Below are positions 1,631 through 32,800 of a DNA stretch of 64,000 nucleotides, in pieces. Within the stretch, counting starts at the first letter, position 1, and the number at the start of each line of letters is the position of its first letter. Source of the DNA: a virus (Duplodnaviria; Caudoviricetes). Below the pieces are notes generated by a model, which was given only the letters and a program-made list of their open reading frames with translations, had not been told where the DNA came from and ran no database searches. Position numbers and translations under genes: made by a program. The stretch is from IMG/VR virus record IMGVR_UViG_3300012665_000704, positions 1-64,000 of that record; one strand, given 5' to 3'.

Positions 1631-2458
1631 ATGATCGCAACAAACAATCCATTAAAGCAGTATTTTCGTAGACCGGCAATTTATTTAAGATTACCCAGCG
1701 GTGGAACAGGATATCCCCCAGGCGTAGTTAATTTACCTGAATCAGGTGAATTGCCAATATACCCAATGACTGCAATTGATGAAATTACAAGTAAAACACC
1801 AGACGCATTGTTTAGTGGAACTGCTATTGTAGAATTAATTAAAAGTTGCATACCTGATATAAAAGACCCTTGGTCTATCAATAGCACAGATTTAGATGCT
1901 ATCTTAGTAGCTATTAAATCAGCAACACAAGGAAATGATTTTGAAATTGAATCATCTTGTACAGCTTGTGGTGAAGCTGCTACATATGGCGTTAACCTAA
2001 TAGGAATCTTAACAGGATTAAAACCAGGAGACTATTCCAAAGAATTAGAAATTGGTGATTTGAAAATTAAATTCAGACCTTTATTGTATAAAGAAATGAA
2101 TGATGCAGCCAAAACACAATTTGAAATTCAAAAGATATTTTCTAACTTAGAAGAATTACCTGAAGAAGAAAGAAATATAAAAACTCAAGAAGCTATAAAA
2201 AGCATAACTGAGATTACTATGCAATTGTTATCTAAAACGATTGAGTATATTGAAACCCCTGGCTCACAAGTAGCAGAAAAAGCATTCATTTTAGACTTTT
2301 TGCATAATTGCGATAAGAACTCATATACCACAATTCGTGATTATCATGCAAAACTAAAAGAACAAACTGATATTAAACCATTAAAAATTAAATGCATACA
2401 CTGTCAAGTAGAATATGAACAACCATTCATATTGAATGCATCTGATTTTTTCGGATGA
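1631..2458 (+). CDS. Baseplate hub assembly protein / tail assembly chaperone (T4 gp26-like)
   Basis: NPLKQYFRRPAIYLRLPSGG start, PMTAIDE, DLDAILVAIK, two CxxC pairs (CTAC, CIHC), C-terminal DFFG. ATG 1631 follows AAGGA and is preferred over GTG 1601. Confidence 0.7.
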   Translation: MIATNNPLKQYFRRPAIYLRLPSGGTGYPPGVVNLPESGELPIYPMTAIDEITSKTPDALFSGTAIVELIKSCIPDIKDPWSINSTDLDAILVAIKSATQGNDFEIESSCTACGEAATYGVNLIGILTGLKPGDYSKELEIGDLKIKFRPLLYKEMNDAAKTQFEIQKIFSNLEELPEEERNIKTQEAIKSITEITMQLLSKTIEYIETPGSQVAEKAFILDFLHNCDKNSYTTIRDYHAKLKEQTDIKPLKIKCIHCQVEYEQPFILNASDFFG

Positions 2459-2682
2459 GGCTTCTACACCTTGACCACGAGGGTGTAAGTAAGCTGATAG
2501 AGGGAATGGAAAAAGAATGTATTGAGTTAAAGAGAAGTGCGTTGTCTTTAACTTGGTACATGCGTGGTGGCGTTTCATATGAAGATGTACTAAACATGTC
2601 CATTGAGGAAAGAAAACTCATCAATGAACTAATAGAAGAAAATCTTGAAACAACTAAGAAGACGCAATTGCCATTCTTTTAA
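2455..2682 (+). CDS. Small baseplate hub assembly catalyst (gp51-like) or frameshifted extension of the upstream chaperone
   Basis: WYMRGGVSYEDVLNMSIEER resembles gp51 and tail-chaperone GT C-termini. It is in the -1 frame of the upstream ORF with an ATGA overlap. Confidence 0.6.
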   Translation: MRLLHLDHEGVSKLIEGMEKECIELKRSALSLTWYMRGGVSYEDVLNMSIEERKLINELIEENLETTKKTQLPFF

Positions 2683-2738
2683 TACGTGGAACAATAGACG
2701 CAACTATTCATTTATACTTCATTCGGGTTTATCTTTAA

Positions 2739-2780
2739 AGACAAACTTCGTTTGTCTAAGAACTCACTTCGTTCGTTCTT
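2739..2780. repeat. Two abutting hairpins with C-GAA-G loops on the minus strand (possible origin/ssDNA signal or bidirectional terminator)
   Basis: Minus strand reads AAGAAC-GA-A-CGAAG-T-GA-GTTCTT then AGACAAA-CGAAG-TTTGTCT; located between convergent transcription units. Confidence 0.6.
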
Positions 2781-2824
2781 AATTTTACGGTTATCTATTG
2801 TTTTTAGATTATAATATATAAGGG

Positions 2825-3186
2825 ATATATTGCCGCTTGGAGAGCCATGGTAGTGCTATTCAGCACTACCAGTGGTAAAGGGAATTTGCCATGCCCATCG
2901 TCCATTGTTATCTTTTCCCCGTTTAATTGCCTATTTCTGACACTAAACGCTACCGGTTGCTCTGTAAAGTTTACGGGACTGTAGTGAAGCTATTGTTTTT
3001 TTTAACAATTCTTCAGCAACGCACATTCTATAACTTAAAGATAAAGTTGTTATAGACTTGTTGAAGGTTCGCTTTGTCGATTGCCTTCTCGGTATACCCA
3101 TGAATATTACTATTCATGCTTGCTCCAGATCCGTCAGCACAGCACAATCTGTACAAACTCAAGGAGGACTGTCAAACACAGTCAAC
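2825..3186 (-). ncRNA. Putative structured non-coding RNA of unknown class (~360 nt, ends approximate)
   Basis: Intergenic tract, visibly richer in G+C than its flanks, with stems at 3167-3183, 3099-3118 (GUAA loop), 3063-3088, 3027-3056, 2985-3015, 2920-2949 (G-U pairs only on the minus strand) and 2845-2875. Confidence 0.55.
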
Positions 3187-3192
3187 AAATTT

Positions 3193-3759
3193 TTATGTAT
3201 TAATAGTTAAAATTGTATTTTCAATTGATTTTGACGTGGTGTCTATTGAGCCTGAATATGTTTTCAGAAGATTTGTATTGAAATTAAAGAAACTGTCAAA
3301 TTCCATTATGATCCAATCACCGTGTTTAGACGATGTGTAATACATGAAATTGTCAGTCACCCATGTTAGTTTGCTTTGTACTGCAACATAGCGACCCTTA
3401 CGATTAAACTTCATAAAAAGAACGTTTAAATCTTCGGGATCGGCTACATCCATGAGTTGTTCTAGCCAGCCATCAATTACTTTGCATTCACCTGAAAGTA
3501 ATAAATGAAACGGAAAATCAGCATAGAATTTACATTCAACATTTAATTTAGAAAAGGTTTCTCCGGGAACAATGTCCCCTTTAAAACTTCTAATCTGTCC
3601 TTCATGTAAGAATTGTGTTCTTGATTGATTTTTACCACCTACATAAGCACCTGATCCAGGAGCACGGATAAAACTTTCTCCGTACTTCTCTGATAGATAT
3701 TTTGCGATTTCTCGTTCGAAACCTGAACCTTTTGCTTTTTGTGGACTTGGCATACTCAT
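3193..3759 (-). CDS. Hjc-like PD-(D/E)xK nuclease, putative Holliday junction resolvase
   Basis: KAKGSGFEREIAKYL, GSGA, KGDIV and VECK motifs of the Hjc family. The true start may be ATG 3753, downstream of GATAAGTA. Confidence 0.75.
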   Translation of the reverse strand: MSMPSPQKAKGSGFEREIAKYLSEKYGESFIRAPGSGAYVGGKNQSRTQFLHEGQIRSFKGDIVPGETFSKLNVECKFYADFPFHLLLSGECKVIDGWLEQLMDVADPEDLNVLFMKFNRKGRYVAVQSKLTWVTDNFMYYTSSKHGDWIIMEFDSFFNFNTNLLKTYSGSIDTTSKSIENTILTINT

Positions 3760-3785
3760 ACTTATCTATTATTTCAGATATAAAA

Positions 3786-5861
3786 TTATTCTATATCTAC
3801 CGCTGTACTGTATGTTGTAAAGCCATTTTCTTTAATTACTTTTAGAACACTGGGTACACGACCTGCTAATTCTTCTCTATGGCTAACTAACCAAATAGAT
3901 TTATGTCTTCTACGTGACATGTCTTTAAGAATAGCAATAGCATTTTCAACACCCATAGTGTCTAATCCGCTATCAATTAATTCATCAATAAACAATGTAT
4001 TGATTGGGCTATATAAGTTTTCCCAAACATCACGGAAAGCAAAACTCAAGCCTAAGATTAAACGATTACGTTCACCTCGACTTAAATTATCAAAGTCAAG
4101 TTCACGACCCAATTCAGTAATTTCTACTTCTAGGTCATTTTTAAATACCACTTGATGCGGCAACCCAATACTATCTAAGTAATGTGTTAATCGTGCATTC
4201 AAGTATGACAAATTCTGGTCAATAATCTTTTTACGAACAAAACTATCTTTACTTGTTAGTACATCTAACAAGAATTTTTGATGTTCCATTGTTTTTGTTA
4301 GTTTGTTAATAGCATCAAAATCAGTAGATTGTAAAGCATTCTTTTCCATCTCAACGACTTGTTCATTGTATGGGTCAGATTCAGCAGCCTTTGTTTCAAT
4401 GTTATGTAACAAACCAGATACTTTACTACGATGTTCAATCGCTTGTGCTTCTGTATCATAATGTGTACTTGGCATAATACCCACTTCAACTTCAGTTAAT
4501 TCTATAAGTTGTTCTGCGTATGGGTCAACTTCTTGTTCTTTTTCAAGAATTTTTGTACGAATATTTTCTAATTCACTACCATGACGTATTGCTTCTGCTT
4601 CTGTACTGTAATGTGTCTTTGGTTTTTTATCTGCAACAATGATAACTTTATCGTTTTGTTCGTTCCATTGTTTAAGTAAAGACGTTACATGAACATTTGC
4701 TTCAATCAACATATGTTCTTTATCTTGCAATACTTTGGTATGTTGCTCATCGTGAAAATCTTGTCCACAGGCATAACAAGTATGGTCACGTAGTGTAGCG
4801 ACCTCTGTTTCAAGTTTTTTAATTAACTTGTTTTCTTTGTCAATATCTTTTTGTAAACGTGCAAGTTCCTTATCACGTTCAGCCAACTCAACAGTTTTAA
4901 TATTATATTCGGCTAGGGCTCTATGTGCTGATATTTCTTCAACAATGTCAATGTGTTGCATTTTAAATATAGCATGTTCTAAATCACCTATATCTTTTTC
5001 TTGTTTTTGTTTCCAAGCAACTTGTCTAGCCAATAGTGCATTGTATGTGTCTTGTTGTTTTTTCTTTTGATTCCAAATTACTAATTCTTTGTGTGCTACT
5101 AATTCACTATCAATGTCAATTTTTGAAAGGTCATCATACTGTGCTACCAATGCAGCCAAATCACTTTCGTGTTTTTTACTCCATAGTACTTGTCTACGTT
5201 TTAAACTTTCAATTTGTTCTTTCACTCTTTTATTGGCTTCTTCTACTGCCTTAACTTTAAATTCTTCTTGTTGAATACCATCTTTGGTATTCTTCAACAT
5301 TGTTTTAATAATTTCAGCTTTTTCAGATAATAGTGTAATACCCAATAACTGTTCAATAATTTCACGTTGTTCGTTTGCCTTTAGTGACAAGAATGGTTCA
5401 CTATACGTATTCAATGCTACGATATGCCTAAACATACTACTAGACATATTCAATACTCGGTCAATTGCTTGTTGAGTTTCTTTATTCTCACCCTGAGCAT
5501 CATCTAAAGTTTTTTGTAAATCATTATTCACATAGAACCGTAGGATATTTGGTTTACGACCTCGCTCAATTTTATATTCAATGCCATGCACACTAAACTC
5601 AAGTGTGACCATCATGCCCTTACCGTTTGTACGATTAACTAAATTATCTTTTCTAATTGAGTTAATGGGCACACCAAACAATGCATAACTAAGTCCTTGA
5701 ATAAGACTGGTCTTACCCGTACCGTTACGTGCGCCGTCGCTACCTAAATCTAAGTTCTCACCTAGAATAAGTGTTAATTCTTTTTTGTCAAAGTCAACTG
5801 CTTGTGTTACTTGTCCAATGGATAGGAAATTACGTAATGTAATATTTTTTAGTATAATCAT
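3786..5861 (-). CDS. gp46: Recombination ATPase, SbcC/Rad50/T4 gp46-like
   Basis: NFLSIG start, Walker A NGTGKT, long coiled coil with CYAC zinc hook, LSRGE signature, LFIDE Walker B, LVSH H-loop. Confidence 0.92.
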   Translation of the reverse strand: MIILKNITLRNFLSIGQVTQAVDFDKKELTLILGENLDLGSDGARNGTGKTSLIQGLSYALFGVPINSIRKDNLVNRTNGKGMMVTLEFSVHGIEYKIERGRKPNILRFYVNNDLQKTLDDAQGENKETQQAIDRVLNMSSSMFRHIVALNTYSEPFLSLKANEQREIIEQLLGITLLSEKAEIIKTMLKNTKDGIQQEEFKVKAVEEANKRVKEQIESLKRRQVLWSKKHESDLAALVAQYDDLSKIDIDSELVAHKELVIWNQKKKQQDTYNALLARQVAWKQKQEKDIGDLEHAIFKMQHIDIVEEISAHRALAEYNIKTVELAERDKELARLQKDIDKENKLIKKLETEVATLRDHTCYACGQDFHDEQHTKVLQDKEHMLIEANVHVTSLLKQWNEQNDKVIIVADKKPKTHYSTEAEAIRHGSELENIRTKILEKEQEVDPYAEQLIELTEVEVGIMPSTHYDTEAQAIEHRSKVSGLLHNIETKAAESDPYNEQVVEMEKNALQSTDFDAINKLTKTMEHQKFLLDVLTSKDSFVRKKIIDQNLSYLNARLTHYLDSIGLPHQVVFKNDLEVEITELGRELDFDNLSRGERNRLILGLSFAFRDVWENLYSPINTLFIDELIDSGLDTMGVENAIAILKDMSRRRHKSIWLVSHREELAGRVPSVLKVIKENGFTTYSTAVDIE

Positions 5862-20866: not shown

Positions 20867-23800
20867 ATGGCAACAAGAATTAGAACGCTAAATTTTCTTC
20901 CAGAAATATTTAAAACACAAACCAATGCACAGTTCCTAGCGGCAACACTAGATCAACTTGTAGCACAACCTAATACAAAAAAGATACAAGGTTATGTGGG
21001 AAGTAAATTTGGTTATGGAGTAAACGCAACTGATTACTATGTTACTGAACCTACTAAAGTTAGAACAGATTATCAATTAGACCCTGGTGTTGTATTCTTA
21101 AAAGAAAATGATACTACTGCAAATGACTTTATTAGTTATCCTGGTATTGTCGATGGATTAAAACTTGAAGGTGGATTAACTCCTGATAACAATAGACTAT
21201 TCAACAGTCAATTTTATTCTTGGGATTCGTTCACTAATCTAGATAAAATAATTAACTTTAATGAATACTACTGGTTACCAGATGGACCTGATCGTGTAGT
21301 AATTTCTACAGACGTAGTGTTTAATTCTTCTAATTATCTAGTTCAAAGTTTATCAAATGAATATTTAATTTCTTCTGAATCTCAATCTGCAACAAGCAAT
21401 CCTACGCTTACTTTATTAAGGGGTGGGTCATATACTTTTAGTGTAAATCAAAATACACAATTTTGGATACAAGGTGAACCTGGCGTCACTGGATACAGTC
21501 CAACACAGCCTAATGTGCAAACACGTGACGTATTCGGAGTTACTAATAATGGTGCTGAAAATGGAGTGATTACGTTTGAAGTTCCTGCACAGAATGCATT
21601 AAACGAATATAATTTTCCTCCTGGCCCTGCCGTAGGAGTTGTATCTTCATTACCGTTTAGTCAAGTCAATGGTGCAAGAGTAACTGAAATAGGCGGAATT
21701 GACGGCGTTACAGCATTGGATGGTTTGACTGTGATGTTTTATAATACCGGCATAGCTGATGAAATAGGTTATATTCAAAAATTTTACGATCAAACTTTAT
21801 TTGATGAAGACGGTGGTGTCTCTTACGATGAAGCAACTGATTACCCTGGAACATCTGAATTTTATAATAATTATGAAGGTGGTTTTTACAGCCCAGTAAA
21901 TTCTAATTTTTACACAATTACTTTGTTAGGAGATCAATCTAATCCTATCATTCAACTTACTCCGGCAGGAACTATTCCTACTAATCAAACAATCACACCT
22001 ACATTTGGTTCTGAGTGGGTAAACAGAAATTTTTATAGAAGTGTAGATGGTGCAATTGCTTTAGTTCCATATAACAGTGCAATACTAGACACACTATATT
22101 ATCAAGACGGTACCAATCCAAATAAAGTTGGTATTATTAAATTAGCTAATAGCAATGTTTCTAATTCATTAGATGTTGTTACTGAGATTTTAGGAAAGCC
22201 ACAGTATACTGCACCTAATGGAGTGGTGTTTACAAATGGATTGAAAGTTTTATTTCAAGGTAATATTACTCCTGAAATTTATAATAACACTGAATTTTAT
22301 GTTGAAGGTGTGGGTACCGCAATTGAATTAATACCAGTTGCAGATTTAGTTAGCCCCGGTGCATTTGCTGAAGGTTCTTATATCCCATTCGACACTACAC
22401 CATATGATGTGGGTAACTTTGATTCAAGTTTATATCTTTTAATAGATCCAGATTATATTACTATTGCAAGAAATGCAATTAATAAAAATGCATGGTCACG
22501 CAGTAATAGATGGTTTCACATTGATGTGATAAACGCAACTGCAACTTATAATAATAATCCCGAGTTAGCCTCAGTTGCTACAATTTATAATAAAGCATCT
22601 CGTCCTATTATAGAATTTTATCCAAATCTTAGTTTATTTGATTCTGGTGTGATAGGTAAACAACCTATTGACTTTATAGATTTTAGAACTACTGATGCAT
22701 TTACATTGGTTGCAGGTCAACCTACATATTATCCTGATGTTGCAGGATACACAGATTACACTGCAACTATTGCACCTGTAACTTCAGCTATCACAAGCAA
22801 AACAGCAACACAAACTGTTGGTTTAGTTAATCAAGTTATACTAAGTCCAAACACAACTGGCATTCATGTTAATGACACTATTGTATTTGGTTTGGTAACT
22901 GCTGGTAGTTTTGTTTCGGGTACAACATATAAAATTGTCACGTCTGGTAATACTGACTTTACTGCAATAGGAGCTAGTTCTAATGCAGTGGGTACAGTGT
23001 TTGTTGCATCTGGCGCTGGATCAGGAACAGGCACTGCCGGTGATGTAGATTCAGAATTTGGTGGACTAACTTCTGGGGTAACTTACTATATTAATGAAAT
23101 CGTAGGTAGCAGAATAACAGTATCAACTGAAAAACAAGGTTCAAACATTGTATTAACCTCTGCTTCAGGTTCTATGGTTACTTCAATATATCCATATAGC
23201 ACAAACATTACAATAGCAACAAGTGAAGTGTTTGGTTTATTTGAAGTAGGTCAATATATTGCAGACTCAACAGGCATTCTTCCTGCAGTAACATTTATTA
23301 CCGCAATAACAGAAGTTGGGTCTAATACAATCTTAACAGTTTCTTGGTATAATCAAGAAGTTATCACAGGAACTTCAGTTGCATCTATTGTATCTGCTGA
23401 TACTACTTTATCGAACTATGCTTTATTTGATGGGGCTAGAGTAGTTTTTGCTGCCGACACTAATTTAAGTGTTAGAGATAAAATATATGTTTCTCGTTTT
23501 TCTTCTATTGATGGTACAGGAACTCCGGTAATCACACTAACTGAAGCCTTCGATGGTCAAGTATTAGCAGATGAACAGACTTCGGTTTATAGAGGATATA
23601 ATTACAAGGGTAAAGATTTTTACTTCAACGCTGAAAATTGGCAACAAGCACAACAAAAAATTACAATTAATCAGGCTCCTAAATTTGACATATATGATGA
23701 AAATGGTATAAGTTTTGGTGATAGCACAGTTTATATTGGTACGTCATTTACAGGTTGCTCACTATTTCAATATGGCTTAGGAACAGGTATAAGTGATCCT

Positions 23801-26800
23801 GTTTTGGGTTTCCCATTACGTTATAGTACAGTAAGTAATATAGGTGATATTAGCTTTGATGTTACATTAGATTCACAAACATTTAATTATGTTCAAGGAA
23901 CAAATCCAATTACACAAAAAGTGAATACAGGATACGTATACAACTATACATCACGTACTAGCTTTGTAAGACAATTAGGTTGGCAAACAGCAGTATCACC
24001 TAGTGTACAATATCAAATTTTTGAATTTAATTGGTCAATTGATAATCCAATAACTAACTTTACATGTGACATAGCTCCGGTATCTTCTAGTTCAACTAAT
24101 TGGCCAACCGTACAAGTCTATATAAATAATACCTATTTGCCAGAAACTGATTTTACAGTTTCAACAACAGGTGATACAACAACAGTTACTATACCTCAGA
24201 TTGACGCAGTTGATACTGTAGTTCAGGTATTAATATTAAGTGACCAAGTAAGTTCTACTGCATATTATCAAATACCAATTAACTTAAGCAATAATCCTTT
24301 CAATGAAGACATACTAACTGTTAACATTGGTGATATTCGCGGACAGTATCAAAGTATGTTCTTTAATAATCCAAATACTATGGGACCAGTATTTGGACGT
24401 AACAACTTCCGTGATTTAGGAAATCTTGTTCCTTGGGGAAATAGAATTATTCAAAACAGTGCTTCACTTGTGTTGCCTGGAACATTCTTGCGTAAACAAA
24501 ATCATAATTTGTTTAATTCTATTTTATACAATAGTAGACAATACATTACGTTTAAAAATTTATTAATTGATACTGTAAACAATACAGATTATAATCGTAT
24601 GTTGTCTCCGGCAGAAATGTTAGATGATGCAATGGATCAAATAACATCTACAAAAACAGATAGTCAACCATTCTTCTGGAGTGATATGTTGCCTTCTAAG
24701 GCACCTTATATTTCTAATACATATTCTTTTGCAAACACACTGGATGTTAGTATATATCCTTTAAGTAGAATTTATGATTTTGACAAAGCAAATTATTATG
24801 GTGTATTGGTGTATCTAATTAGAGATGGTGTCACCTCACAACTAATTTTTGGAGTTGATTATACTGTAAGCACTAGTGCTCCCTCATTAACAGTTACATT
24901 AGATTTATTAGCTAACGACCAAATCGTTATCAATGAATATAATCAAACATACGGTAGCTATGTACCTAACACGCCTACTAAATTAGGTCTTTACCCTTCA
25001 ACTATTCCAGCAGTCGTTGTAGATACTGCATATTTTGAACCTACATATTTTATAGTAGGACATGATGGGTCATACAATAAATTGTTTGGACCGTATGATA
25101 GTACTACAGGACAATTAGAAGATTTCAGAGATCAGGTATTACTTGAGTATGAAACACGTATATACAATAACTTAAAACTAAGCAACGTTATTCCAATTCA
25201 AACATATGAAGTAATCCCGGGTTTCTTTAGAGACCTTCAATATTCATATGATGAATTCTTAGAAGTTTATTCTGAATCTTTCTTAGATTGGGTTGGACAA
25301 AACAGAGTTGACTACAAAAGACAATTTTATAATTCAACAAATGAATTTTCATACAATTACCGTAACAGTGGAAACAAAGTAAATAGAGAACCAATCCAGC
25401 AGGGATATTTTAGGGGATTGTATTTGTATTACTACGATACACCTACTCCTGATGTAACACCTTGGCAAATGATAGGTTATACAGATCAACCAACATGGTG
25501 GACTGAGCGTTATGGTCCTGCTCCATATACAAGTGATAACTTAATTTTATGGAACGACTTAGCAGAAGGTATAGATTGGAATAATGGTAATCCTGTAGTA
25601 ATAACAGAATACATTCGTCCTGAGTTATTGCAAGTATTACCAGTAGATAGTAACGGTGATTTAGTGTCACCTCTTGCTTCTATTGTTGGAAACTATAACA
25701 ACAACATTTTCAATCGTGATTGGAAAGTTGGCGATGTTGGGCCTACAGAATTCAGCTATCGTAGAAGTAGTACATGGCCATTTGATTTGATGCGTCTTTA
25801 TGCATTAGCAAAGCCAGCTAATTTCTTTAACTTAGCAGTGGATGTTGACAATTACAAGTACAGTGCTGAGTTTGATCAATATTTGGTTAACAATAGAAGT
25901 CATTTACAATTAGGTGATATACCTATATATGGTCTGGGAACTCCTGCAACTAGCTACATTAACTGGATAGTTGATTTTGAAAAACAAGTTGGCATTGATG
26001 CAACAACTGATATCACTACTTTATTGAAGAATTTAGATGTACGTTTGGTATATCGTGTAGCAGGGTTTTCAGATAAGAATTTGTTAAAGTTTTACGTTGA
26101 AAAAAGTTCAGCAAACACAACTAACAGTTCATTATTAATACCTGATGAAAGTTATTCTGTATTATTATACGATAATCAACCATTTGATAGAATTGTATAT
26201 TCTGGTGTGGTTATTCAAATAACAGAAAATGGTTATCAAGTATACGGAAATTCTCAGACTAACGCATACTTTAAAATTTTATTGCCAAAAAATTCAGGAT
26301 ACAGTGAAACTATTGAAGTTGAAAATTTATCAGTTAGGATAGCTGATCAATACTCAGATAAAGTTGGTATCATTCCTTATGGTACTGAATTTTATAGTGT
26401 TCAGGAAGTTGCACAGTTTTTAAGTTCTTATGGAAAATACCTTGAAAGTCAGGGTATGAAATTTGACCAGATAGAAAATGGCATCCCTGTTAATTGGGCG
26501 CAAATGATTGCTGAGTTTTTATATTGGTCACAAATAGGTTGGGAAGTTGGTAGTATAACTACAATAAATCCTTCTGCCTCTACATTAGTAATTGACAAAG
26601 ACAGTAGTGTTGTGCAACCATTAACAGTAAGACAACGTAACTTTGTACTAAATCAAAACTTATTTCCAATACAATCAATTGATTTAAATGTTGTTCGCCA
26701 AGATACTGCATTTACGGCACAACCATTGAATCAAGGTGATGCGATCAGTTATGGTCAATTTAATATTAGCAACTTTGAACACGGTATCGTGTTTGACAAC

Positions 26801-29800
26801 GTTACACTATTTAATGACATAATTTATAATTTAATTACTGGCCTACGTCAATATCGTGTATCAGTCCGCGGAACTAAAACAGCAGACTGGAATGGTACAG
26901 TTGATGCAGCAGGCTTTATTTTAAATCAAGATAACATCCAAGAATGGAATAGAGAAATCAAATATACCAAGGGTGAAATTGTTCTTTATAAAAATAGATA
27001 TTGGACATCTTTAACTATTGTACAACCTAAAGTATTATTTGACGAACGTGATTGGAAAGAAACAAACTATAACGAAATTCAAAAAGGATTGTTGCCTAAC
27101 AGTCAAACTCGTTCTTTTGAAAGTACATTATACTATAACACTGATTCTGCAAACTTAGAAAATGATGCAGATTTATTAAGTTTTAGTTTGATTGGATATC
27201 GTCCAAGAGATTACTTAGCACTTGCTGATTTAACAGATATCACACAAGTAAACGTTTACAAAAACATGATTAAAGAAAAAGGTACATTGAATGCAGCCAG
27301 TGCGTTCAAGGGTGCTAATTTACCACAAGGTGGAATTAATTATGACATTTATGAAAACTGGGCTATTAAATCAGGTGAATTTGGTGGCGTATTAAACAAC
27401 AACTTTGTTGAATTTAACTTAAATCAAGCGTCATTGACAGGTAATCCAAGCATTGTTGGTTTAACTGATGGAATATTTACTGATGGAGTACAGCAAGAAG
27501 TACCACTATATTCTATATTCAATTATGGTAGACCAATAACCAGTCCTAACATATTACCTACTATTTCAGCCACTGAGCCTTCTGCATTATTCCCTACAGC
27601 AGGCTATGTCAATTACAATGACGTTAAAATGTCAAGTTACTATTATTCTGGTTTAGCTACTGCAACTAATGCTAGTGGAACAATAGTACCTATCAATGAA
27701 TTTTATGTACGTGATTATGTTTGGTTAGCAAATTATCTATCTGATTGGAGAGTGTACACACCAGTCAGTTTAGGTTCAATCATTAATGCCAAGAATAATT
27801 TGAATGGTACTGTAACTATTACATTTAGCCAGGCTCATAATTTAACAAGATTTGAGTTATTTGGTATAACAAACTTTGATGTAGCAATTAATAACTATTA
27901 TCTAGTGGCAGCAGTTGTTGACCCGTTCAGAGTCATCATTAATCTTTCATTGAATCCTAGTACACTTAATATCGTAGGTGAAGGTATTGGTTTAAGAATG
28001 CAAAGTCAACGTGTAGCAACTGCACCTGAAATTGTTGACTTGCCATTATTAAATAATGAATTTACTAAATCAAAAGTTTGGGTTGACGAAAACAACGATG
28101 GCAGTTGGGCAGTATATCGCAAGAGTTTGAACTATCAGTATGATGCAGAAATCATTAGATCATCAAGTCAAACATTTGGTAGCGCAGTTGCATACACAAC
28201 TCCTATGGGATATTTGATTGGTGATGCAGATGTTGGAGCAGTATACCGCTATACTTTCAATGCAGAAGCAAATACCTATACATTAGACCAAGCTATTACA
28301 AATAGTGCTTCATTTGGTTCGTACATATCTTACGCTGATGATTTATTTGTAATCTCAGAACCAACAAGCGGTTCACCTAAAGTATATGTATATCAATTAA
28401 TAACTACTACTCTAATAGATAATCTAGACCCTTATCAAACTATTTCTGCACCAGGCGGAGTAACTGACTGGGGTAGCACAACTGCTATTTCAGGTGATCA
28501 AAATTGGTTATATATTTCAGACACAGGCAACGCAAGAGTGTATGCATATCGTAAATCAACAATTACTAATTTATATGAGAGTGTAGGATATATTTCAGTA
28601 GCAGGTTTAACTTCCGCTGACAATTTTGGATTTTCGATTGCAACAGATTACTATGGTGATACTGTAGTAATTGGCGCACCTGATCAAGATTATGATGTAA
28701 ACACAGATAATTACGGATATACATATGTGTTTGCAAGAACAGTGCAGAATTTTATAGCACCTTCTACTAGTCAACCATATACCCCGCAGACATTTGCATT
28801 GTCTTGGTCACCTGTCACAGTTACACAAACTGCAACTGCCACAGATAGTACCAACGATAGAATCACTATAACAAGTTCTGCTGGATTTAGTGTTAATGAT
28901 CCTGTAGTGTTCTCTGGTGATATTTTATCTTCTGGTGCAATCGCTCAAAATACTGTGTATTATGTTTATGATAAACCAACATCAACTACATTTAGAATTG
29001 CATCAACACGTAATGCAGCCGCACCAATCGAATTAGCTACAGCTTCAGGCCCACCTAACATGACTGTTACTGTACAAACAACACCATTGTTTGTTAATAT
29101 TAACGGAACATTACTTGAGGATGATACCTATGCAGTTATAGGGTCTACATTATATGTTTACAGTGGCTTAACCCCAACATTAAATGCAGGTGATATTCTT
29201 TCTGTTAGTGGATCAAATTTTGTATTGACACAAACATTAGACAACGGACAAACACCGCGTGTAGGAGTACAGTTTGGACAAAGCGTAGATACAAATACAT
29301 ACGCTAATGAAATTTTAGTAGGTGCTCCGTTTGAATTAAGTGCCGACAATTATGAAGGTGCTATACATAGATTTACTAATGGTGGTGAAAAATATGGTTT
29401 TATTATTGGTACTACCGATTGTAATATCACAACACCAAGAACAATTTTAATAAATGGATATCAAGTTATTTTACCAATAGGTAATGCAACAAATGCTTCA
29501 AACTTTATTAATGCAGCTAACATTCCCAATGTAAGTGCTACTTCAATTGATGGTAAATTAGTCATTCAATTAGTTGACATTGCTATAGGATTTGCAGGTT
29601 CAAAACTTTCATTGACTGTGTTGGATTCTGCAACTCCTGCTGAAATGGGAATTAATATCTATACAGCAACACAAACTATTGCTTGCCCACACTTAACTGG
29701 ACCTACACAATTTGGAAGTGTAATTAAATTTAATGAGTTTGATTCATTTATAGCCAGCGCCCCTACAGGAACTCGCTACTCAGCTACAACATTTGATTTT

Positions 29801-32800
29801 ACAGATGATGAATTAGATAATGATACTGTATTTGATAACAATGCTACACAATGGATTGATACATTTGCTAATGCCGGTGCAGTATACATGTTTGATTATA
29901 TTTCTGCATATAATGAAAGTTTAAATAATCCAGGTAAATTCGTATATGCTCAAAGTACAAATGCAGAAAATATTGATTATGGTTCACAACCTTATTATGG
30001 TCAGGCATTAGACTTTAATGATAATAGAGTCACAGTAGGAACTCCTAATTTTAGACCAGGTTATGATAACGGTCAAGTGGTAGCATATACTAGTACTAGT
30101 ACCGAACAAGACTGGGCAGTCTATAGAAGTTCTGCTCCTATCGTTGATATAAATGGTATTGCAAACATTCAGTTATTCAGCGCATCATCTAATACAACAT
30201 TAGACAACTTAGATTACTTTGATCCGTTACAAGGAAAATTATTAGGGGCAATTAGAGAAAATATTGATGTTGTTTCTAATTCAGATCCTGCGGCATATAA
30301 CTCTCCTAATAGCACACAGCGTGGTTTAGTATGGGGAGCAGACAAAGTAGGTCAACTATGGTTCGATACATCAAACACGAGATTTGTTAACTACCATCAA
30401 AATGACATTGTTTATAACAGTCAGTATTGGGGTAGAATTTTCTCAGGTAGTGACGTTGCAGTATATTCATGGATAGTAAGTAATGTTAGTCCATTAGACT
30501 ATATTGGCCCAGGCATTCCGTATAACATCGATACTTATACAGTTAACGGCGTAATCAATGCAGAAGGCACTATTGTTCCATTATATTATTTCTGGGTAAG
30601 AAATACAAATATTGTATTTGAAAAGACTGGAAAAACATTAGCTGATTCTACATTAGAGGCATACATATCTCAACCTCAAAATACAGGTATAAGTTATTTC
30701 GCACCACTACAACCTGACATTTTTGCTTTATATAATTCAGGTGATTATTTAAATGGTAATGATACTGTATTACATATTGGTTATGCAACAGGAACTAATG
30801 ATGACCCTATACATAATCAATATGAATTGATTCGTGCTGATTATGCAGATGATTTCTTGCCAGGTGTTCCGGGATCAGGTGCTGGATATCAAGCACGTTC
30901 ATCAGTGGGTATAACAGAACCAATTTCATTATATAATAGAATGTTAGATAGTATGTGCGGCGTAGATAATGCCGGTGCAGTAGTACCTAACCCATTCTTA
31001 CCAAAAGCAGTTCAAACCGGTGTTCTTGCAAGACCAAGACAAAGTTTCTTCTATGATAGATATGATGCATTAAAGAATTATTTACAGTATGCCAATGAAG
31101 TATTAGCACAATTTCCTATAACAGAAATAAGAAACCCTTCATTCTTAAATACTACCGGTGCTACAAATCCATCGACAGTAGACAATCCTGATTGGACAGG
31201 AAGTGTATTGCCATTCTATGATACAACTAATTATTGGAGTTATATAAACTGGTGGGCACCTGGTTATGATAATAATACAAAGTCTGCCTTACAAGTTTCG
31301 ATTTATGCTGATTTATCAACATTAACTGTTACACCCGGAACAATTGTTACTGTAGCTACAAACGGTAATGGAAATTCAGAAACATATATCTATAACATAG
31401 ATGGTTCATGGACCCGTATTGGATTAACAAACGGTACAATCGAATTTAGTAGTGCATTATGGGATTACTCTACTTATAGACTAGGATTTGGTGACAATTT
31501 CTTTGACACTACTCCGTATGATGAGTACCCATCAGAAGAAACTAGATATATTATTCGTTCTTTAAATGAAGAAATTTACAACAATGAATTGTTAATTTTC
31601 AGAAATAAAAGTTTAATTTTATTATTTGAATACATTCAGAGTGAAACATCTGAAAATCAAAATTATTTGCCTTGGTTAAATAAAACATCATTCTTAGATG
31701 TAGCACACACTATCCGTGAACTACGTCCGATTGAAGTATTCCAATCAGATAACGAGTTATTCTTGGAAGGTTACATGAATGAAGTTAAACCATATCATGT
31801 AGTTATTAAAGAATTCTTATTCAAGTATACTGGCACTGATGTGTACGAAGGTGATATCACTGATTTTGATTTACCTGCACAGTATAACAGTTCAGTGCAA
31901 CAGTTTATAACACCGGAATTAGTTTATTCTAATCCAAACGGTGATAATCAGTATTTACCAAATGATCCTATATGGCAAACTGCCCCTTATAGTCAATGGT
32001 TTAATAATCACGGTGTAAGTATTGTTGGTGAAAATGATTATCCTATATCAGTATTAACATCATATGTTGCAACAAATTCAAACTCATGCTATGTTGATAA
32101 CGTAACTGGATTCCCTGTTACTGGAACAATTTTAATTGGCACTGAGTTGATTGGATATTCTAGTGTAAATCTATTAACTAACCAATTATTAGGATTAGCA
32201 AGAGGATTAGAAAATACTGTAATACAACAACATATTCCAGGAGAAACAATCTTTATTGATTTGCCTGCTGTACTAGTGTTGAATGCAGGTAGATTGTATG
32301 ACAATCCTCCTAAAATTACTGCAATAATTGATACTACTATATATCCTGAACCAACAGTTCCTGCACAGTTTGAAGCTGTAATGGGATTAGGTACTGTTAT
32401 TGGTGTAAACGTTATAAATCCTGGACAAGGATATGCAGTACTTCCTAAAATTGAAATTGATCCTGCTATTGTTGTTGAAGTTAATAGCACTCAAGTAAAT
32501 ATTTCAAATAATACAATAGAACTTACTATACCTATATTACAGACAGGAGATTTGATTGTATATCAGCCTGGCACAACCAGTACTGTAATAGGTGGATTAA
32601 CTTCAGGACAAAAATATTATGTTAACTTGTTGGAAGTTTCTCCGGCACCAATTATAGCACTTTACGCTAGTTACATTGATGCTGAAAGAGATCATAACCG
32701 TGTAGTTTTAACTAGCACTGGTTCAGGAGTTCAAAAATTAAACTTGGGTGCAGTTGCGTCTTGTATAACTAGCTCTGCACCAGTAAGAGAAAATAGTATT

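What the first reader, a model, noticed from the sequence alone, without database searches (positions are those of the whole stretch)
2825..3186. Unclassified ~360 nt structured RNA candidate immediately 3' of an Hjc-like nuclease
Seen: in a gene-dense genome this interval has no credible ORF but at least 7 stems. The minus strand is favoured by a GNRA loop (CAUGAAUA-GUAA-UAUUCAUG) and by G-U pairs at 2920-2949 that would be A-C mismatches on the plus strand. A longer-range GUUGCU/AGCAAC helix (3020-3015 with 2961-2956) encloses a subdomain. It starts about 10 nt after the nuclease stop and ends just before two DNA-type hairpins. I see no tRNA, tmRNA, RNase P or group I/II intron hallmarks. 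Inference: a new phage ncRNA class, for example a replication primer/R-loop RNA (by analogy to ColE1 RNA II or T4 origins), an RNA partner of the nuclease, or a ribozyme.
Basis: partly seen in the sequence, partly recalled or inferred. Interest (0 to 1): 0.8.

Follow-up and report, generated by a model that had tools for sequence, protein, structure and literature searches.

The report
New knotted RNA of jumbo phages
The gene-free gap behind a small nuclease gene of this uncultured giant lake phage holds a real gene for an intricately folded, doubly knotted RNA of about 365 bases that hundreds of related phages keep, that matches no catalogued RNA family, and whose job is still unknown.

Summary
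Window 3194-2829 (minus strand) encodes a ~366-nt structured RNA. On 100 distinct homologues, 97.2% of cells in 97 proposed pairs are standard pairs (shuffled 85.2%, slid 30-45%). 59 pairs show compensatory changes, including two pseudoknots. G-U cells outnumber A-C cells 587 to 77, which fixes the strand. There is no coding signal. Rfam 15 gives nothing at gathering score and only sub-threshold noise in three members. The RNA sits directly behind a PDDEXK_15 nuclease gene in every locus with enough flank (174 of 174; 80 of 80 in a second walk). It is single-copy in five large relatives. I did not find it in four cultured jumbo phages or in 185,579 species genomes. Added here: a covarying mini-hairpin inside the nuclease 3' end, a base triple, a G:G/U:U covariation, and RNA-library contigs that bridge gene and RNA. 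Function is not shown. I rank a trans-acting folded RNA particle above nuclease partner, ribozyme or replication primer. This scan already found the same family on other genomes. My paper searches found it nowhere in print.

The parts
2829..3194 (-). Core of the structured RNA (366 nt; RNA position p = 3195 - window coordinate).
   Evidence: Covariance model R1 matches here at 401.3 bits, E 3e-120, over the full model, and this is the only real hit in the window and in the 73-kb record. Homologous stretches lie directly behind the nuclease stop in 80 of 80 loci.
2830..3188 (-). P0, a closing helix UUGUU (3188-3184) with GGCAA (2834-2830). This helix is tentative.
   Evidence: 84.2% of cells are paired. 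Changes are one-sided only (U-G to C-G), with no double compensation (helix 1).
3167..3183 (-). P1 hairpin, GACUGU (3183-3178) with ACAGUC (3172-3167).
   Evidence: 6 of 6 pairs show changes on both sides and 99.8% of cells are paired (helix 2).
3123..3166 (-). P2, CUCC (3166-3163) with GGAG (3126-3123), enclosing the variable hairpin P2a (3154-3149 / 3142-3137).
   Evidence: P2 is 100% paired, and 2 of 100 sequences carry CUCU/AGAG. In P2a, 3 of 6 pairs are compensated (helices 3-5). Some relatives have a different hairpin here.
3099..3118 (-). P3 hairpin, CAUGAAUA (3118-3111) with UAUUCAUG (3106-3099), capped by the GNRA tetraloop GUAA (3110-3107).
   Evidence: 8 of 8 pairs are compensated (helices 6-7). 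The loop reads GUAA, GCGA, GCAA or GUGA in relatives.
2951..3094 (-). P4, UACCG (3094-3090) with CGGUA (2955-2951). It closes a four-way junction with P5, P6 and P7.
   Evidence: 100% paired. The outer pair switches UA/CG/AU (66/18/15) (helix 8).
3063..3088 (-). P5, GAAGG/CCUUC (3088-3084 / 3067-3063), and P5a, UCG/CGA (3080-3078 / 3071-3069), with an invariant ACAAAG loop.
   Evidence: In P5, 3 of 5 pairs are compensated and 100% of cells are paired. P5a never varies (helices 9-10). This is the motif used for the collection scans.
3023..3061 (-). P6, ACA/UGU (3061-3059 / 3025-3023) plus UCUAUAAC/GUUAUAGA (3056-3049 / 3034-3027). Its 14-nt loop carries the 5' strand of PK2.
   Evidence: 10 of 11 pairs are compensated and 98.9% of cells are paired (helix 11).
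2956..3020 (-). It encloses the variable hairpin P7a and the internal loop that holds the 5' strand of PK1.
   Evidence: 3 of 6 pairs are compensated and 96.5% of cells are paired. The base of P7a is 80.8% paired in a poorly aligned insert region (helices 13-14).
2920..2949 (-). P8 hairpin, CGUUUAG/UUAAACG (2949-2943 / 2926-2920) plus UGUC/GGCA (2942-2939 / 2931-2928).
   Evidence: 8 of 11 pairs are compensated and 99.2% of cells are paired (helix 16). It carries 180 G-U cells against 3 A-C cells.
2916..2978 (-). Pseudoknot PK1, UCCC (2978-2975, inside P7) with GGGA (2919-2916, just after P8).
   Evidence: It was found de novo by a helix scan. 4 of 4 pairs are compensated and 98.2% of cells are paired (helix 15). 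It is not part of the model used for alignment.
2908..3044 (-). Pseudoknot PK2, the P6 loop UUAUCU (3044-3039) with AGAUAA (2913-2908).
   Evidence: It was found de novo. 5 of 6 pairs are compensated and 96.0% of cells are paired (helix 12). It is not part of the alignment model. Covariation cannot tell whether the pairing is within one molecule or between two.
2845..2875 (-). P9 hairpin, CCA + UGGUAGUGCU (2875-2873, 2871-2862) with AGCACUACCA + UGG (2857-2848, 2847-2845).
   Evidence: 98.8% of cells are paired and 3 of 13 pairs are compensated. The sequence is largely invariant (helix 17).
2836..2894 (-). Non-Watson-Crick covariation between RNA position 301 (window 2894) and position 359 (window 2836), which switch together from G:G to U:U.
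   Evidence: GG in 33 and UU in 30 of 63 sequences, with no exception, and the highest non-helical mutual information. The neighbouring variable positions assort independently (alignment). Unexplained.
2951..3094 (-). Candidate base triple. RNA position 227 (window 2968) always has the same base as position 101 (3094) and is complementary to position 244 (2951).
   Evidence: U/A/U in 46, A/U/A in 11 and C/G/C in 6 of 63 sequences. The reading as U.A-U / C+.G-C type triples is inference.
3232..3243 (-). Upstream mini-hairpin GAC-ACCAC-GUC(A), lying inside the 3' end of the nuclease ORF, 19-64 nt before the core in relatives.
   Evidence: Third codon positions here are invariant while neighbouring ones vary. 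The exact motif GACACNANGTCA is in 131 of 143 distinct loci. Of the 12 others, 3 have GGC...GCC and 4 have GAG...CUC (both compensated), 4 keep GAC...GUC with another loop or flank, and 1 is broken. It has one exact match in the window. It shows no covariation with the core.
2781..2828 (-). A+U-rich linker of variable sequence between the core and the twin hairpins.
   Evidence: It is the least conserved part of the gap, with 78-80% A+T in 40-nt windows.
2739..2780 (-). Twin hairpins of the tail: hairpin A (2780-2758, apex GA-ACGAAGU-GA) and hairpin B (2757-2739, apex C-GAA-G). They are probable transcript ends for both converging units.
   Evidence: 6 of 7 pairs (A) and 5 of 8 pairs (B) have changes on both sides. 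The apex word AACGAAGT occurs only at these two places in 64 kb. The simple terminator scan found no intrinsic terminator.
2706..2715 (-). Conserved word AUAAAUGAAU between the tail and the stop of the convergent gene.
   Evidence: It is nearly invariant in the alignment. ATAAATGA is present in 100 of 153 tails. It resembles the ATAAATA word found before several plus-strand genes. Its role is unknown.
3193..3759 (-). Upstream gene for a 188-aa PD-(D/E)XK nuclease, last gene of a minus-strand block that also holds a Rad50/SbcC-like gene (3786-5861).
   Evidence: Pfam PDDEXK_15 at E 1.2e-25. Relatives in GenBank are annotated as resolvase or D14-like. It lies immediately upstream on the same strand in 174 of 174 loci.
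2455..2682 (+). Convergent downstream 75-aa gene, following a T4_baseplate (PF12322) gene at 1601-2458.
   Evidence: It is convergent downstream in 176 of 176 loci with room.

Best explanation
SHOWN: window 3194-2829, minus strand, is the gene for a ~366-nt structured non-coding RNA.

- A tentative closing helix (P0) is followed by three 5' hairpins. One of them carries a conserved GNRA tetraloop.
- A four-way junction (P4-P7) follows, then hairpins P8 and P9.
- Two short pseudoknot helices tie the strand after P8 to the interior of P7 (PK1) and to the loop of P6 (PK2).
- The locus also has a small conserved hairpin 19-64 nt upstream, inside the end of the nuclease ORF, an A+U-rich linker, and a pair of conserved GAA-loop hairpins downstream.
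- It is single-copy and confined, as far as I searched, to one clade of uncultured jumbo phages (260-525 kb).

INFERRED:
- It is made as the last part of the minus-strand recombination-gene transcript, or from a start within the nuclease gene's 3' end, and ends at the twin hairpins.
- It works through its three-dimensional fold as a trans-acting particle, either with protein partner(s) or as an RNA-only assembly of the GOLLD/ROOL type. In that case PK2 could be an intermolecular contact.
- It probably does not work by antisense pairing, by coding, or as a mere primer.

Its biochemical job is not known.
For: **Structure**
- RNAalifold on 63 MAFFT-aligned sequences gives 92 pairs, 54 of them compensated.
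- My curated structure on 100 distinct sequences has 97 pairs, with 97.2% standard pairs against 85.2% in shuffles and 30-45% when slid.
- 59 pairs have changes on both sides, and 0 of 500 shuffles reach any of the five measures.
- PK1 (4 of 4 pairs) and PK2 (5 of 6 pairs) were found de novo and were not in the alignment model.
- Tertiary signals are the GNRA loop, a triple-like covariation and a G:G/U:U covariation.

**Strand**
- G-U 587 against A-C 77 cells.
- Consensus energy is -66.96 on this strand and -51.85 kcal/mol on the other.

**Not coding**.

**Not a known family**: Rfam 15 gives 0 hits at gathering score in 64 kb. There are only 3 sub-threshold unrelated hits in each of three divergent members. 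No tRNA or tmRNA was found.

**Conservation**
- 80 of 80 loci by blastn.
- 110 of 119 new loci from a motif scan; the other 9 are chance hits in G+C-rich coding DNA.
- 80 of 80 loci in a second walk, with scores down to 176 bits.
- One copy in each of five large relatives, three of them complete by CheckV.

**Transcript unit**
- No ATAAATA-type word of the kind seen before plus-strand genes stands before the RNA.
- RNA-library contigs of relatives bridge the nuclease 3' end and the RNA 5' part: X18 record 5 covers 3142-3292, and X17 record 1 covers 3123-3181 and runs on upstream.

**A precedent**: covarying 'tertiary' pairs of ROOL turned out to be intermolecular (PMC12286853, passages read).
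Against: **Expression**
- The only expression data are Logan contigs from four metatranscriptome runs. They cover fragments of relatives at low depth.
- DNA carry-over is not excluded, and contigs show neither strand nor ends.

**Structure statistics**
- Single-sequence folding z-scores are alike on both strands.
- P0 has no double compensation.
- The alignment was fitted to a model holding 63 of the pairs, and the sequences are related. Both inflate the shuffle statistics. The slid controls and the MAFFT-only result counter this only in part.

**Mode of action**
- Nothing tested here distinguishes a trans-acting particle from a cis-acting 3' UTR element or a ribozyme.
- No partner protein was identified. 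No reverse transcriptase and no Ro60 gene were found in five relatives.
- Unlike GOLLD and ROOL, it is not near tRNA genes. There are none in the 64-kb window, and it lies about 53 kb from the 45-tRNA cluster in a complete relative.
- I saw no palindromic loop covariation of the kind that marks symmetric kissing dimers.
Confidence: 0.55

Rival explanations
1. Nuclease-linked RNA. The RNA is functionally tied to the PD-(D/E)XK nuclease gene that it follows. It could be a structured 3' UTR that controls the stability or translation of the recombination-operon mRNA, or a cofactor or scaffold of the nuclease.
For: - The RNA begins at the nuclease stop codon in every locus with room (174 of 174; 80 of 80).
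- RNA-library contigs bridge gene and RNA.
- A conserved hairpin lies inside the gene's 3' end, where nucleic-acid constraint overrides the protein sequence.
- The RNA-linked nucleases carry a roughly 20-aa variable tail beyond the Pfam domain, which ends at residue 165 of 188. The cultured relatives' genes are shorter, at 498-525 nt.
Against: - The downstream convergent gene is just as invariably linked (176 of 176), so synteny of the whole region explains the linkage.
- Homologous nucleases (28-44% identity) work in cultured phages without this RNA.
- The nuclease is small and has no recognisable RNA-binding domain.
- The RNA has no hypervariable single-stranded 'guide' segment. Its variable parts are compensated hairpins.
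- A 366-nt double pseudoknot is far more than mRNA 3' protection needs (inference).
Confidence: 0.15
2. Ribozyme. The conserved junctions and pseudoknots form an active site, for example for self-processing out of the operon transcript or for acting on another RNA.
For: - Size, two pseudoknots, a GNRA loop and many invariant unpaired nucleotides (for example ACCGAG, CAAAGCGAAC, UGCGUU, ACUACAG, AACCGGU) are typical of large ribozymes.
- Its position at the end of a polycistronic unit, with a conserved upstream hairpin at variable distance, would suit a processing event.
Against: - No match to any ribozyme family of Rfam even at E up to 10.
- The order of helices fits neither RNase P, nor group I or II introns, nor tmRNA (one search compared with recalled textbook topologies).
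- No cleavage site is visible. No reads show ends (table 6: none).
Confidence: 0.12
3. Replication-origin transcript. The RNA primes or opens an origin by forming an R-loop in the adjacent A+T-rich linker, as ColE1 RNA II or the T4 oriF/oriG transcripts do. The GAA-loop hairpins would act on single-stranded DNA.
For: - The 3' flank is the most A+T-rich part of the gap (78-80%) and is followed by two unusually conserved C-GAA-G hairpins that are unique in the window.
- The locus lies between recombination genes and gp26/gp51-like baseplate genes. I recall that T4 oriF, in uvsY, also borders genes 25/26/51; this was not tested.
Against: - A primer transcript does not need two covarying pseudoknots, a base triple and invariant loops.
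- The tail is not unusually purine-rich (0.58; 10.8% of genome windows are as rich).
- Cumulative GC skew of a complete 364-kb relative follows gene orientation. Its extremum is at 192 kb, not at the RNA at 293.5 kb. This is weak evidence, because skew in such phages is transcription-driven.
- There is one copy per genome.
- The exact hairpin apex is missing from 37 of 153 tails.
Confidence: 0.1
4. A DNA-level element (protein-binding array, packaging site or single-stranded DNA structure) or an overlooked small protein gene, and not an RNA.
For: The region is as conserved as the neighbouring genes (71-96% identity).
Against: - Compensatory changes keep pairing in 59 of 97 pairs, which double-stranded DNA sites do not need.
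- G-U against A-C asymmetry of 587 to 77 shows that one strand folds, with wobble pairs.
- No frame is open across relatives and there is no codon periodicity.
- There are no direct repeats or iterons in the core (alignment).
Confidence: 0.04

Closest known systems
GOLLD (RF01998) and ROOL (RF03087) RNAs, the large 'ornate' RNAs of phages and prophages
   Same: These are large, phage-borne, multi-pseudoknotted RNAs of unknown function, found by comparative genomics, with variable hairpins between invariant junctions. In ROOL, a covarying 'tertiary' pairing proved to be a contact between molecules of a cage (PMC12286853, passages read). PK2 here could be of that kind.
   Different: - No sequence or structure match to either family in three members at E up to 10.
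- The size is 366 nt, against more than 800 nt for many GOLLD members, while ROOL residue numbering runs past 460. My recollection of about 580 nt for ROOL is from memory only.
- It is not near tRNA genes.
- It has a fixed place behind a nuclease gene in one phage clade.
- Oligomerisation was not tested.
OLE RNA (RF01071) and raiA motif RNA
   Same: These are large, highly conserved structured RNAs whose biochemical function is unresolved. OLE works as a ribonucleoprotein (search listing and abstracts).
   Different: They are cellular (Bacillota) rather than phage RNAs. There is no Rfam match. No OLE-type partner genes were looked for here.
ColE1 RNA II and the T4 oriF/oriG origin transcripts
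   Same: A non-coding transcript next to an A+T-rich stretch and next to recombination and replication genes. In ColE1, folding of the RNA decides function (recalled).
   Different: - Those transcripts are not known for conserved double pseudoknots (recalled).
- I found no origin signal in GC skew.
- I saw no promoter directly upstream.
- No RNase H gene or replication data were examined for this clade.
Nuclease-associated scaffold RNAs (omega RNA/HEARO of IscB and TnpB, bridge RNA of IS110)
   Same: A structured, pseudoknotted RNA encoded right beside a nuclease gene on the same strand.
   Different: - The nuclease is a 188-aa PD-(D/E)XK enzyme of a family that works without RNA in other phages.
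- There is no guide-like variable single strand.
- There are no transposon ends.
- HEARO is in Rfam and did not match.
Other undescribed large jumbo-phage RNAs noted by this scan (the multi-copy RNA of RaK2-like phages; a marine RNA that travels with a GIY-YIG nuclease gene)
   Same: Per the scan's notes (unchecked AI notes), these are also 450-530-nt multi-pseudoknot RNAs of jumbo or T4-like phages. One has tandem ACGAAGT words like the tail here, and one sits behind a nuclease gene.
   Different: My model finds nothing in phage RaK2 (best E 2.1, 8.5 bits). A tandem ACGAAGT pattern occurs once in RaK2; I did not look at what lies there. Those RNAs are multi-copy, while this one is single-copy. 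Homology is not shown.

Membership tests
GOLLD (RF01998) / ROOL (RF03087) | Match to the Rfam covariance model at or near the gathering score. | tested here: not met
   No hit to either family at gathering score in the window, nor at E up to 10 in the window copy and two divergent members.
GOLLD (RF01998) / ROOL (RF03087) | Location in phages or prophages, often beside tRNA islands. | tested here: not met
   The phage location is met. There is no tRNA in the 64-kb window. In a complete relative, the 45-tRNA cluster is about 53 kb from the RNA.
GOLLD (RF01998) / ROOL (RF03087) | Assembly into RNA-only homo-oligomeric cages. | not testable with these tools
   This needs cryo-EM or mass photometry of the transcript. 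The only hint is that PK2 could be intermolecular. No palindromic loop covariation was seen.
Bacterial RNase P RNA | Match to the Rfam RNase P models, the conserved regions CR-I to CR-V, and the P4 pseudoknot topology. | tested here: not met
   No RNase P hit at E up to 10. The pseudoknot strands lie in the P6 loop and inside P7, unlike the recalled P4/P6 topology.
tmRNA | A tRNA-like domain formed by the two ends, plus a tag reading frame. | tested here: not met
   ARAGORN finds none in the window. There is no Rfam hit. A relative already has a separate permuted tmRNA call elsewhere in its genome.
Group I / group II introns | Match to the intron models and interruption of a host gene with flanking exons. 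| tested here: not met
   There is no Rfam hit. The element lies between a stop codon and a convergent gene, so there is no second exon.
Origin primer RNA (ColE1 RNA II type, T4 oriF/oriG type) | A promoter directly upstream, an R-loop in an adjacent unwinding element, and replication starting there. | tested here: inconclusive
   An A+T-rich flank is present. No convincing promoter was found. GC skew is uninformative and not centred on the locus.
Guide or scaffold RNA of an RNA-guided nuclease (omega RNA / HEARO type) | A conserved scaffold plus a variable guide segment, and a partner nuclease that always co-occurs and depends on the RNA. | tested here: not met
   Co-occurrence is met in this clade. 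However, there is no guide-like variable single strand, homologous nucleases occur without the RNA, and HEARO does not match.
Retron / DGR / telomerase-type template RNA | A reverse transcriptase gene in the same genome. | tested here: not met
   PF00078 is found in 0 of 5 large relatives, including 3 complete ones. The control genomes gave hits.

The most novel reading that the evidence does not exclude
The RNA is a self-sufficient molecular machine peculiar to a clade of giant phages. It could be a new ribozyme class. Alternatively it could be an RNA-only multimer in which the covarying P6-loop pairing (PK2) and the odd G:G/U:U contact join neighbouring molecules. In either case it would be released from the recombination-gene transcript at the conserved upstream hairpin and needed for the phage's DNA recombination and replication phase.
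Probability: 0.2. Interest if true: 0.9.

Novelty: categorically new. Interest (0 to 1): 0.74.

Why it matters
Only a handful of large, elaborately folded RNA classes are known, among them rRNA, RNase P, introns, tmRNA, OLE, GOLLD, ROOL and raiA. Each has either taught new biochemistry or remains an open puzzle.

This class is compact at 366 nt. It has two pseudoknots, a GNRA loop and two clear tertiary covariations, and hundreds of natural variants are at hand. That makes it well suited to structure determination and to tests for catalysis or self-assembly.

Genomes of 260-525 kb keep it in exactly one copy at one place. This argues for a function important enough to survive in a fast-evolving clade, so it may point to an unknown step in jumbo-phage biology.

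No paper in my three searches describes it. It is, however, not new to this scan: earlier follow-ups reached the same core verdict on other genomes.

Tried and rejected
**Leads that went nowhere**

1. Known families. Rfam gave nothing at gathering score for the window. At E up to 10 for three members it gave only sn668, mir-4854, TD-2, GibS, PK-SPCSV, Histone3, SpR18, CRISPR-DR63 and H19_3. All are far below their cut-offs and none recurs.
2. GenBank phages. Sensitive blastn of the gap found no match. The model searched over whole records of Salicola SCTP-2, PA5oct, Phosso and RaK2 gave only a 17.8-bit partial hit in SCTP-2 and an 8.5-bit hit in RaK2.
3. Cellular genomes. A 22-base motif had 0 matches in genome contigs. 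A divergent copy lacking the motif would be missed.
4. Promoters and terminators. The sigma-70 scan was at chance level (5 found, 5.8 expected) and found no intrinsic terminator. TATAAATA is depleted (3 found, 13.5 expected). ATAAAAATT is at chance.
5. Coding. Rejected.
6. Purine-tract (PPT-like) tail. Not significant.
7. Origin by GC skew. Not supported and weakly informative.
8. Partner hunting. No reverse transcriptase and no TROVE/Ro60 gene in five relatives. Other partners were not searched.
9. Symmetric kissing-loop signature. The adjacent-column covariation at the 3' end of the P6 loop is not a consistent palindrome when the loops are listed.
10. Covariation between the upstream hairpin's two variable loop bases and the core. 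None found.
11. Nuclease fold. phmmer against PDB sequences found nothing, so 'Hjc-like' rests on Pfam PDDEXK_15 only.
12. Metatranscriptome cover. Large parts of the RNA had no contig laid in any of the four runs. This says nothing about absence.
13. Habitat. DNA runs holding 27-59% of the sampled words are labelled metagenome, freshwater or lake water and come from 9 studies.
14. Bookkeeping error. My first structure string had P3 one base out of register (helix 6 at 46% paired). I corrected it, and the figures should be ignored.

Supplementary files of papers were not opened. Those of PMC12286853 might bear on the comparison with ROOL and GOLLD.
Full report
**Setting.** The window is the first 64 kb of a 73.5-kb virus record that CheckV rates 13% complete. 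The flagged interval lies in the only long gene-free gap of this part of the window, 2683-3192. On one side is a 75-aa plus-strand gene that follows a T4_baseplate (PF12322) gene. On the other is a 188-aa minus-strand PD-(D/E)XK nuclease gene (Pfam PDDEXK_15, E 1.2e-25). That nuclease gene ends a minus-strand block that also holds a Rad50/SbcC-like gene. The nuclease's closest cultured relatives (28-44% identity) are in jumbo phages such as Salicola SCTP-2, Sinorhizobium Phosso and Pseudomonas PA5oct, where they are annotated as resolvases. Large relatives of the window's phage measure 264-525 kb.

- The nuclease protein retrieved 316 relatives in IMG/VR, of which 80 were kept.
- The gap's sequence is found directly behind the nuclease stop in 80 of 80 loci, at 71-96% identity over nearly its whole length. 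That is about as conserved as the protein genes.
- A MAFFT alignment of 63 distinct copies shows invariant single-stranded blocks separated by hairpins whose two sides change together. RNAalifold predicts 92 pairs on it, 54 with compensatory changes.
- An independent helix scan and a mutual-information scan recovered the same helices. They added two pseudoknots: UCCC/GGGA (PK1), and the P6 loop UUAUCU with AGAUAA (PK2).

**Structure statistics.** I built a covariance model from 56 sequences that were less than 95% identical to each other. With it I aligned 100 distinct copies and counted my curated structure of 97 pairs.
- 97.2% of cells are standard pairs, against 85.2% after shuffling and 30-45% when partners are slid by 1-3 columns.
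- 59 pairs carry changes on both sides, and 1232 cells show a change on both sides against 355 expected.
- 0 of 500 shuffles reach any of the five measures.

The two pseudoknots, P3 and P2a's inner part were not in the alignment model, so their support is independent of it. My first count had P3 one base out of register and should be disregarded.

**Strand and coding.** On the defined helices there are 587 G-U cells against 77 A-C cells. The consensus energy is -66.96 kcal/mol on the window's minus strand against -51.85 on the plus strand. No frame is conserved: there are a median of 4-7 stops per frame, lengths are spread over all residues modulo 3, and there is no 3-nt periodicity of variable columns.

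**Anatomy** (RNA position p = 3195 - window coordinate).
- A tentative closing helix P0.
- Hairpin P1.
- P2 (CUCC/GGAG) around a swappable hairpin.
- P3, capped by a conserved GNRA tetraloop.
- A tight four-way junction of P4, P5/P5a (invariant ACAAAG loop), P6 and P7.
- P8.
- The strand GGGA..AGAUAA, which forms PK1 with the interior of P7 and PK2 with the loop of P6.
- A conserved, mostly unpaired stretch.
- The nearly invariant hairpin P9.

Two further covariations point to tertiary contacts. Position 227 always copies position 101 and complements position 244, in the pattern of U.A-U / C.G-C triples. Positions 301 and 359 switch together between G:G (33) and U:U (30) without exception, while their neighbours assort freely. 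I cannot explain the latter.

**What surrounds the core.**
- Downstream come about 50 nt of A+U-rich, poorly conserved linker and then two conserved hairpins with C-GAA-G apices (2780-2739). These show compensatory changes in 6 of 7 and 5 of 8 pairs. Their apex word occurs nowhere else in the window. They are therefore not a generic terminator of this phage, although they are the obvious end point for both converging transcripts.
- Upstream, inside the last codons of the nuclease gene, I found a 12-nt word, GACACNANGTCA (3243-3232). It is invariant even at synonymous sites. The exact word is present in 131 of 143 distinct loci. In the rest it changes by compensation (GGC..GCC in 3, GAG..CUC in 4), at the expense of the encoded amino acids, and only one copy is broken.
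- This is a 3-bp, 5-nt-loop hairpin at a variable distance (19-64 nt) from the core. I read it, by inference only, as a processing or protein-binding signal of the RNA unit.
- The nuclease's variable low-complexity tail then looks like translation running on through that leader.

**Distribution.**
110 of the 119 new loci carry the full RNA. The other 9 are chance hits in G+C-rich coding DNA.
- In all loci with enough flank, the nuclease gene is immediately upstream on the same strand: 174 of 174, with 167 within 60 nt by my measure and 7 within 65-75 nt. The 75-aa gene converges downstream in 176 of 176.
- A second walk started from a 65%-identical nuclease. It counted 568 relatives and kept 80, all of which carry the RNA (77 complete, 3 cut by contig ends), with scores down to 176 bits.
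- Five large relatives have exactly one copy each.
- The RNA was not found in 50,697 GenBank phage records by blastn, in four cultured jumbo phages by the model, or in one genome from each of 185,579 prokaryote species by motif.

**Expression.** No raw-read RNA run holds the locus. Four metatranscriptome runs, kept as contigs, hold small shares of its words. When laid, they give fragments of relatives over parts of the RNA. Two contigs run from the nuclease 3' end into the RNA's 5' part: X18 record 5 (3142-3292) and X17 record 1. This fits co-transcription with the nuclease gene. It is weak, because contigs show no strand and no ends, and DNA carry-over is possible.
- I saw no promoter in front of the RNA.
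- The ATAAATA-type word that precedes several plus-strand genes (at 1572, 9007, 17439, 41048) is absent there.

**What it is not.** Rfam 15 gives no hit at gathering score in the window. At E up to 10 it gives only unrelated, non-recurring noise in three divergent members. ARAGORN finds no tRNA or tmRNA. The helix order does not fit RNase P, tmRNA or group I/II introns. No reverse transcriptase or Ro60 gene is present in five relatives.

**How it probably works.** The depth of constraint is that of RNAs which act through a precise three-dimensional fold: two pseudoknots, a GNRA loop, a triple, and invariant junctions. I therefore rank first a trans-acting particle, released from or ending the recombination-gene transcript, that works with protein(s) or as an RNA-only assembly. 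The cryo-EM work on ROOL, GOLLD and OLE shows that pairings first read as tertiary can be contacts between molecules (PMC12286853, passages read), and PK2 is a candidate for that. I found no palindromic-loop signature of symmetric dimers.

The rivals are:
- an RNA tied to the nuclease (cis 3' UTR or cofactor), confidence 0.15;
- a ribozyme, 0.12;
- a DNA element or a missed gene, 0.04.

For the origin idea I tested two predictions. The tail is not unusually purine-rich. The cumulative GC skew of a complete 364-kb relative follows gene orientation and peaks at 192 kb, not at the RNA at 293.5 kb. Neither result is decisive.

**Novelty.** Three full-text searches found no description of this RNA: jumbo phage/structured RNA/covariation; GOLLD/ROOL/phage; huge or jumbo phages/large noncoding RNA. 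I also read passages of one 2026 preprint on prokaryotic non-coding space, which does not mention phages. The family is not new to this scan. Several earlier follow-ups on other genomes reached the same core verdict: a real, doubly knotted RNA, with no Rfam match and unknown function. I confirm that verdict independently on this window. I add:
- the upstream compensated hairpin;
- the triple and the G:G/U:U covariations;
- the uniqueness of the tail apex word;
- the negative scan of cellular genomes;
- the negative reverse-transcriptase and Ro60 searches;
- the bridging RNA-library contigs.

A lead from those notes, that RaK2-like phages carry a related multi-copy RNA with tandem ACGAAGT words, did not yield a detectable match in RaK2 with my model.

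Noticed in passing
window 1572, 9007, 17439, 41048 (plus strand); also 40262/40266: The word ATAAATA (GATAAATA / CAATAAATA) stands 22-30 nt before the starts of plus-strand genes at 1601, 9036, 17466 and 41078. It looks like a T4-late-type promoter word of this phage. The exact T4 consensus TATAAATA is depleted (3 found, 13.5 expected).
   Followed up: partly
window 2706-2715 (minus strand): A conserved AUAAAUGAAU lies between the twin hairpins and the stop of the convergent 75-aa gene. It is one base off the promoter-like word and points antisense into that gene. ATAAATGA is present in 100 of 153 tails of relatives. Its role is unknown.
   Followed up: partly
L135:4992-8261 and L085 (relatives); also L086 and L125, which show longer gaps: In some relatives the Rad50/SbcC-like gene is split at its P-loop (..NGTGK | C......SHN | T..) by a 1.2-1.5-kb insertion with its own ORF. 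This is an intein-like or homing-endonuclease-like insertion that the window's copy lacks.
   Followed up: partly
G002 (complete 364-kb relative): 225.7-240.9 kb, 361,980-362,523 and 363,408-363,482: ARAGORN tRNA genes in one 15-kb cluster, a permuted tmRNA with tag ANDSVFALAA, and a tRNA with anticodon CUA (amber-reading) near the genome end. The knotted RNA lies about 53 kb from the tRNA cluster.
   Followed up: no
window 2441-2458 (overlap of the genes at 1601-2458 and 2455-2682): The baseplate-hub-like gene and the 75-aa gene overlap by 4 nt. I did not examine it.
   Followed up: no
window 20867-40258: A single 6463-codon open reading frame (19.4 kb) on the plus strand. It is also the subject of other first-reader notes.
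   Followed up: no
L202 (PA5oct) 2478-3142 and L203 (Phosso) 2989-4004: In these cultured jumbo phages the same neighbourhood (baseplate hub gene, resolvase, SbcCD) holds unannotated gaps of about 0.66 and 1.0 kb. In Phosso the gap lies next to an RNase HI gene. My model and nhmmer find no homologue of the RNA there, but the gaps themselves were not analysed.
   Followed up: partly
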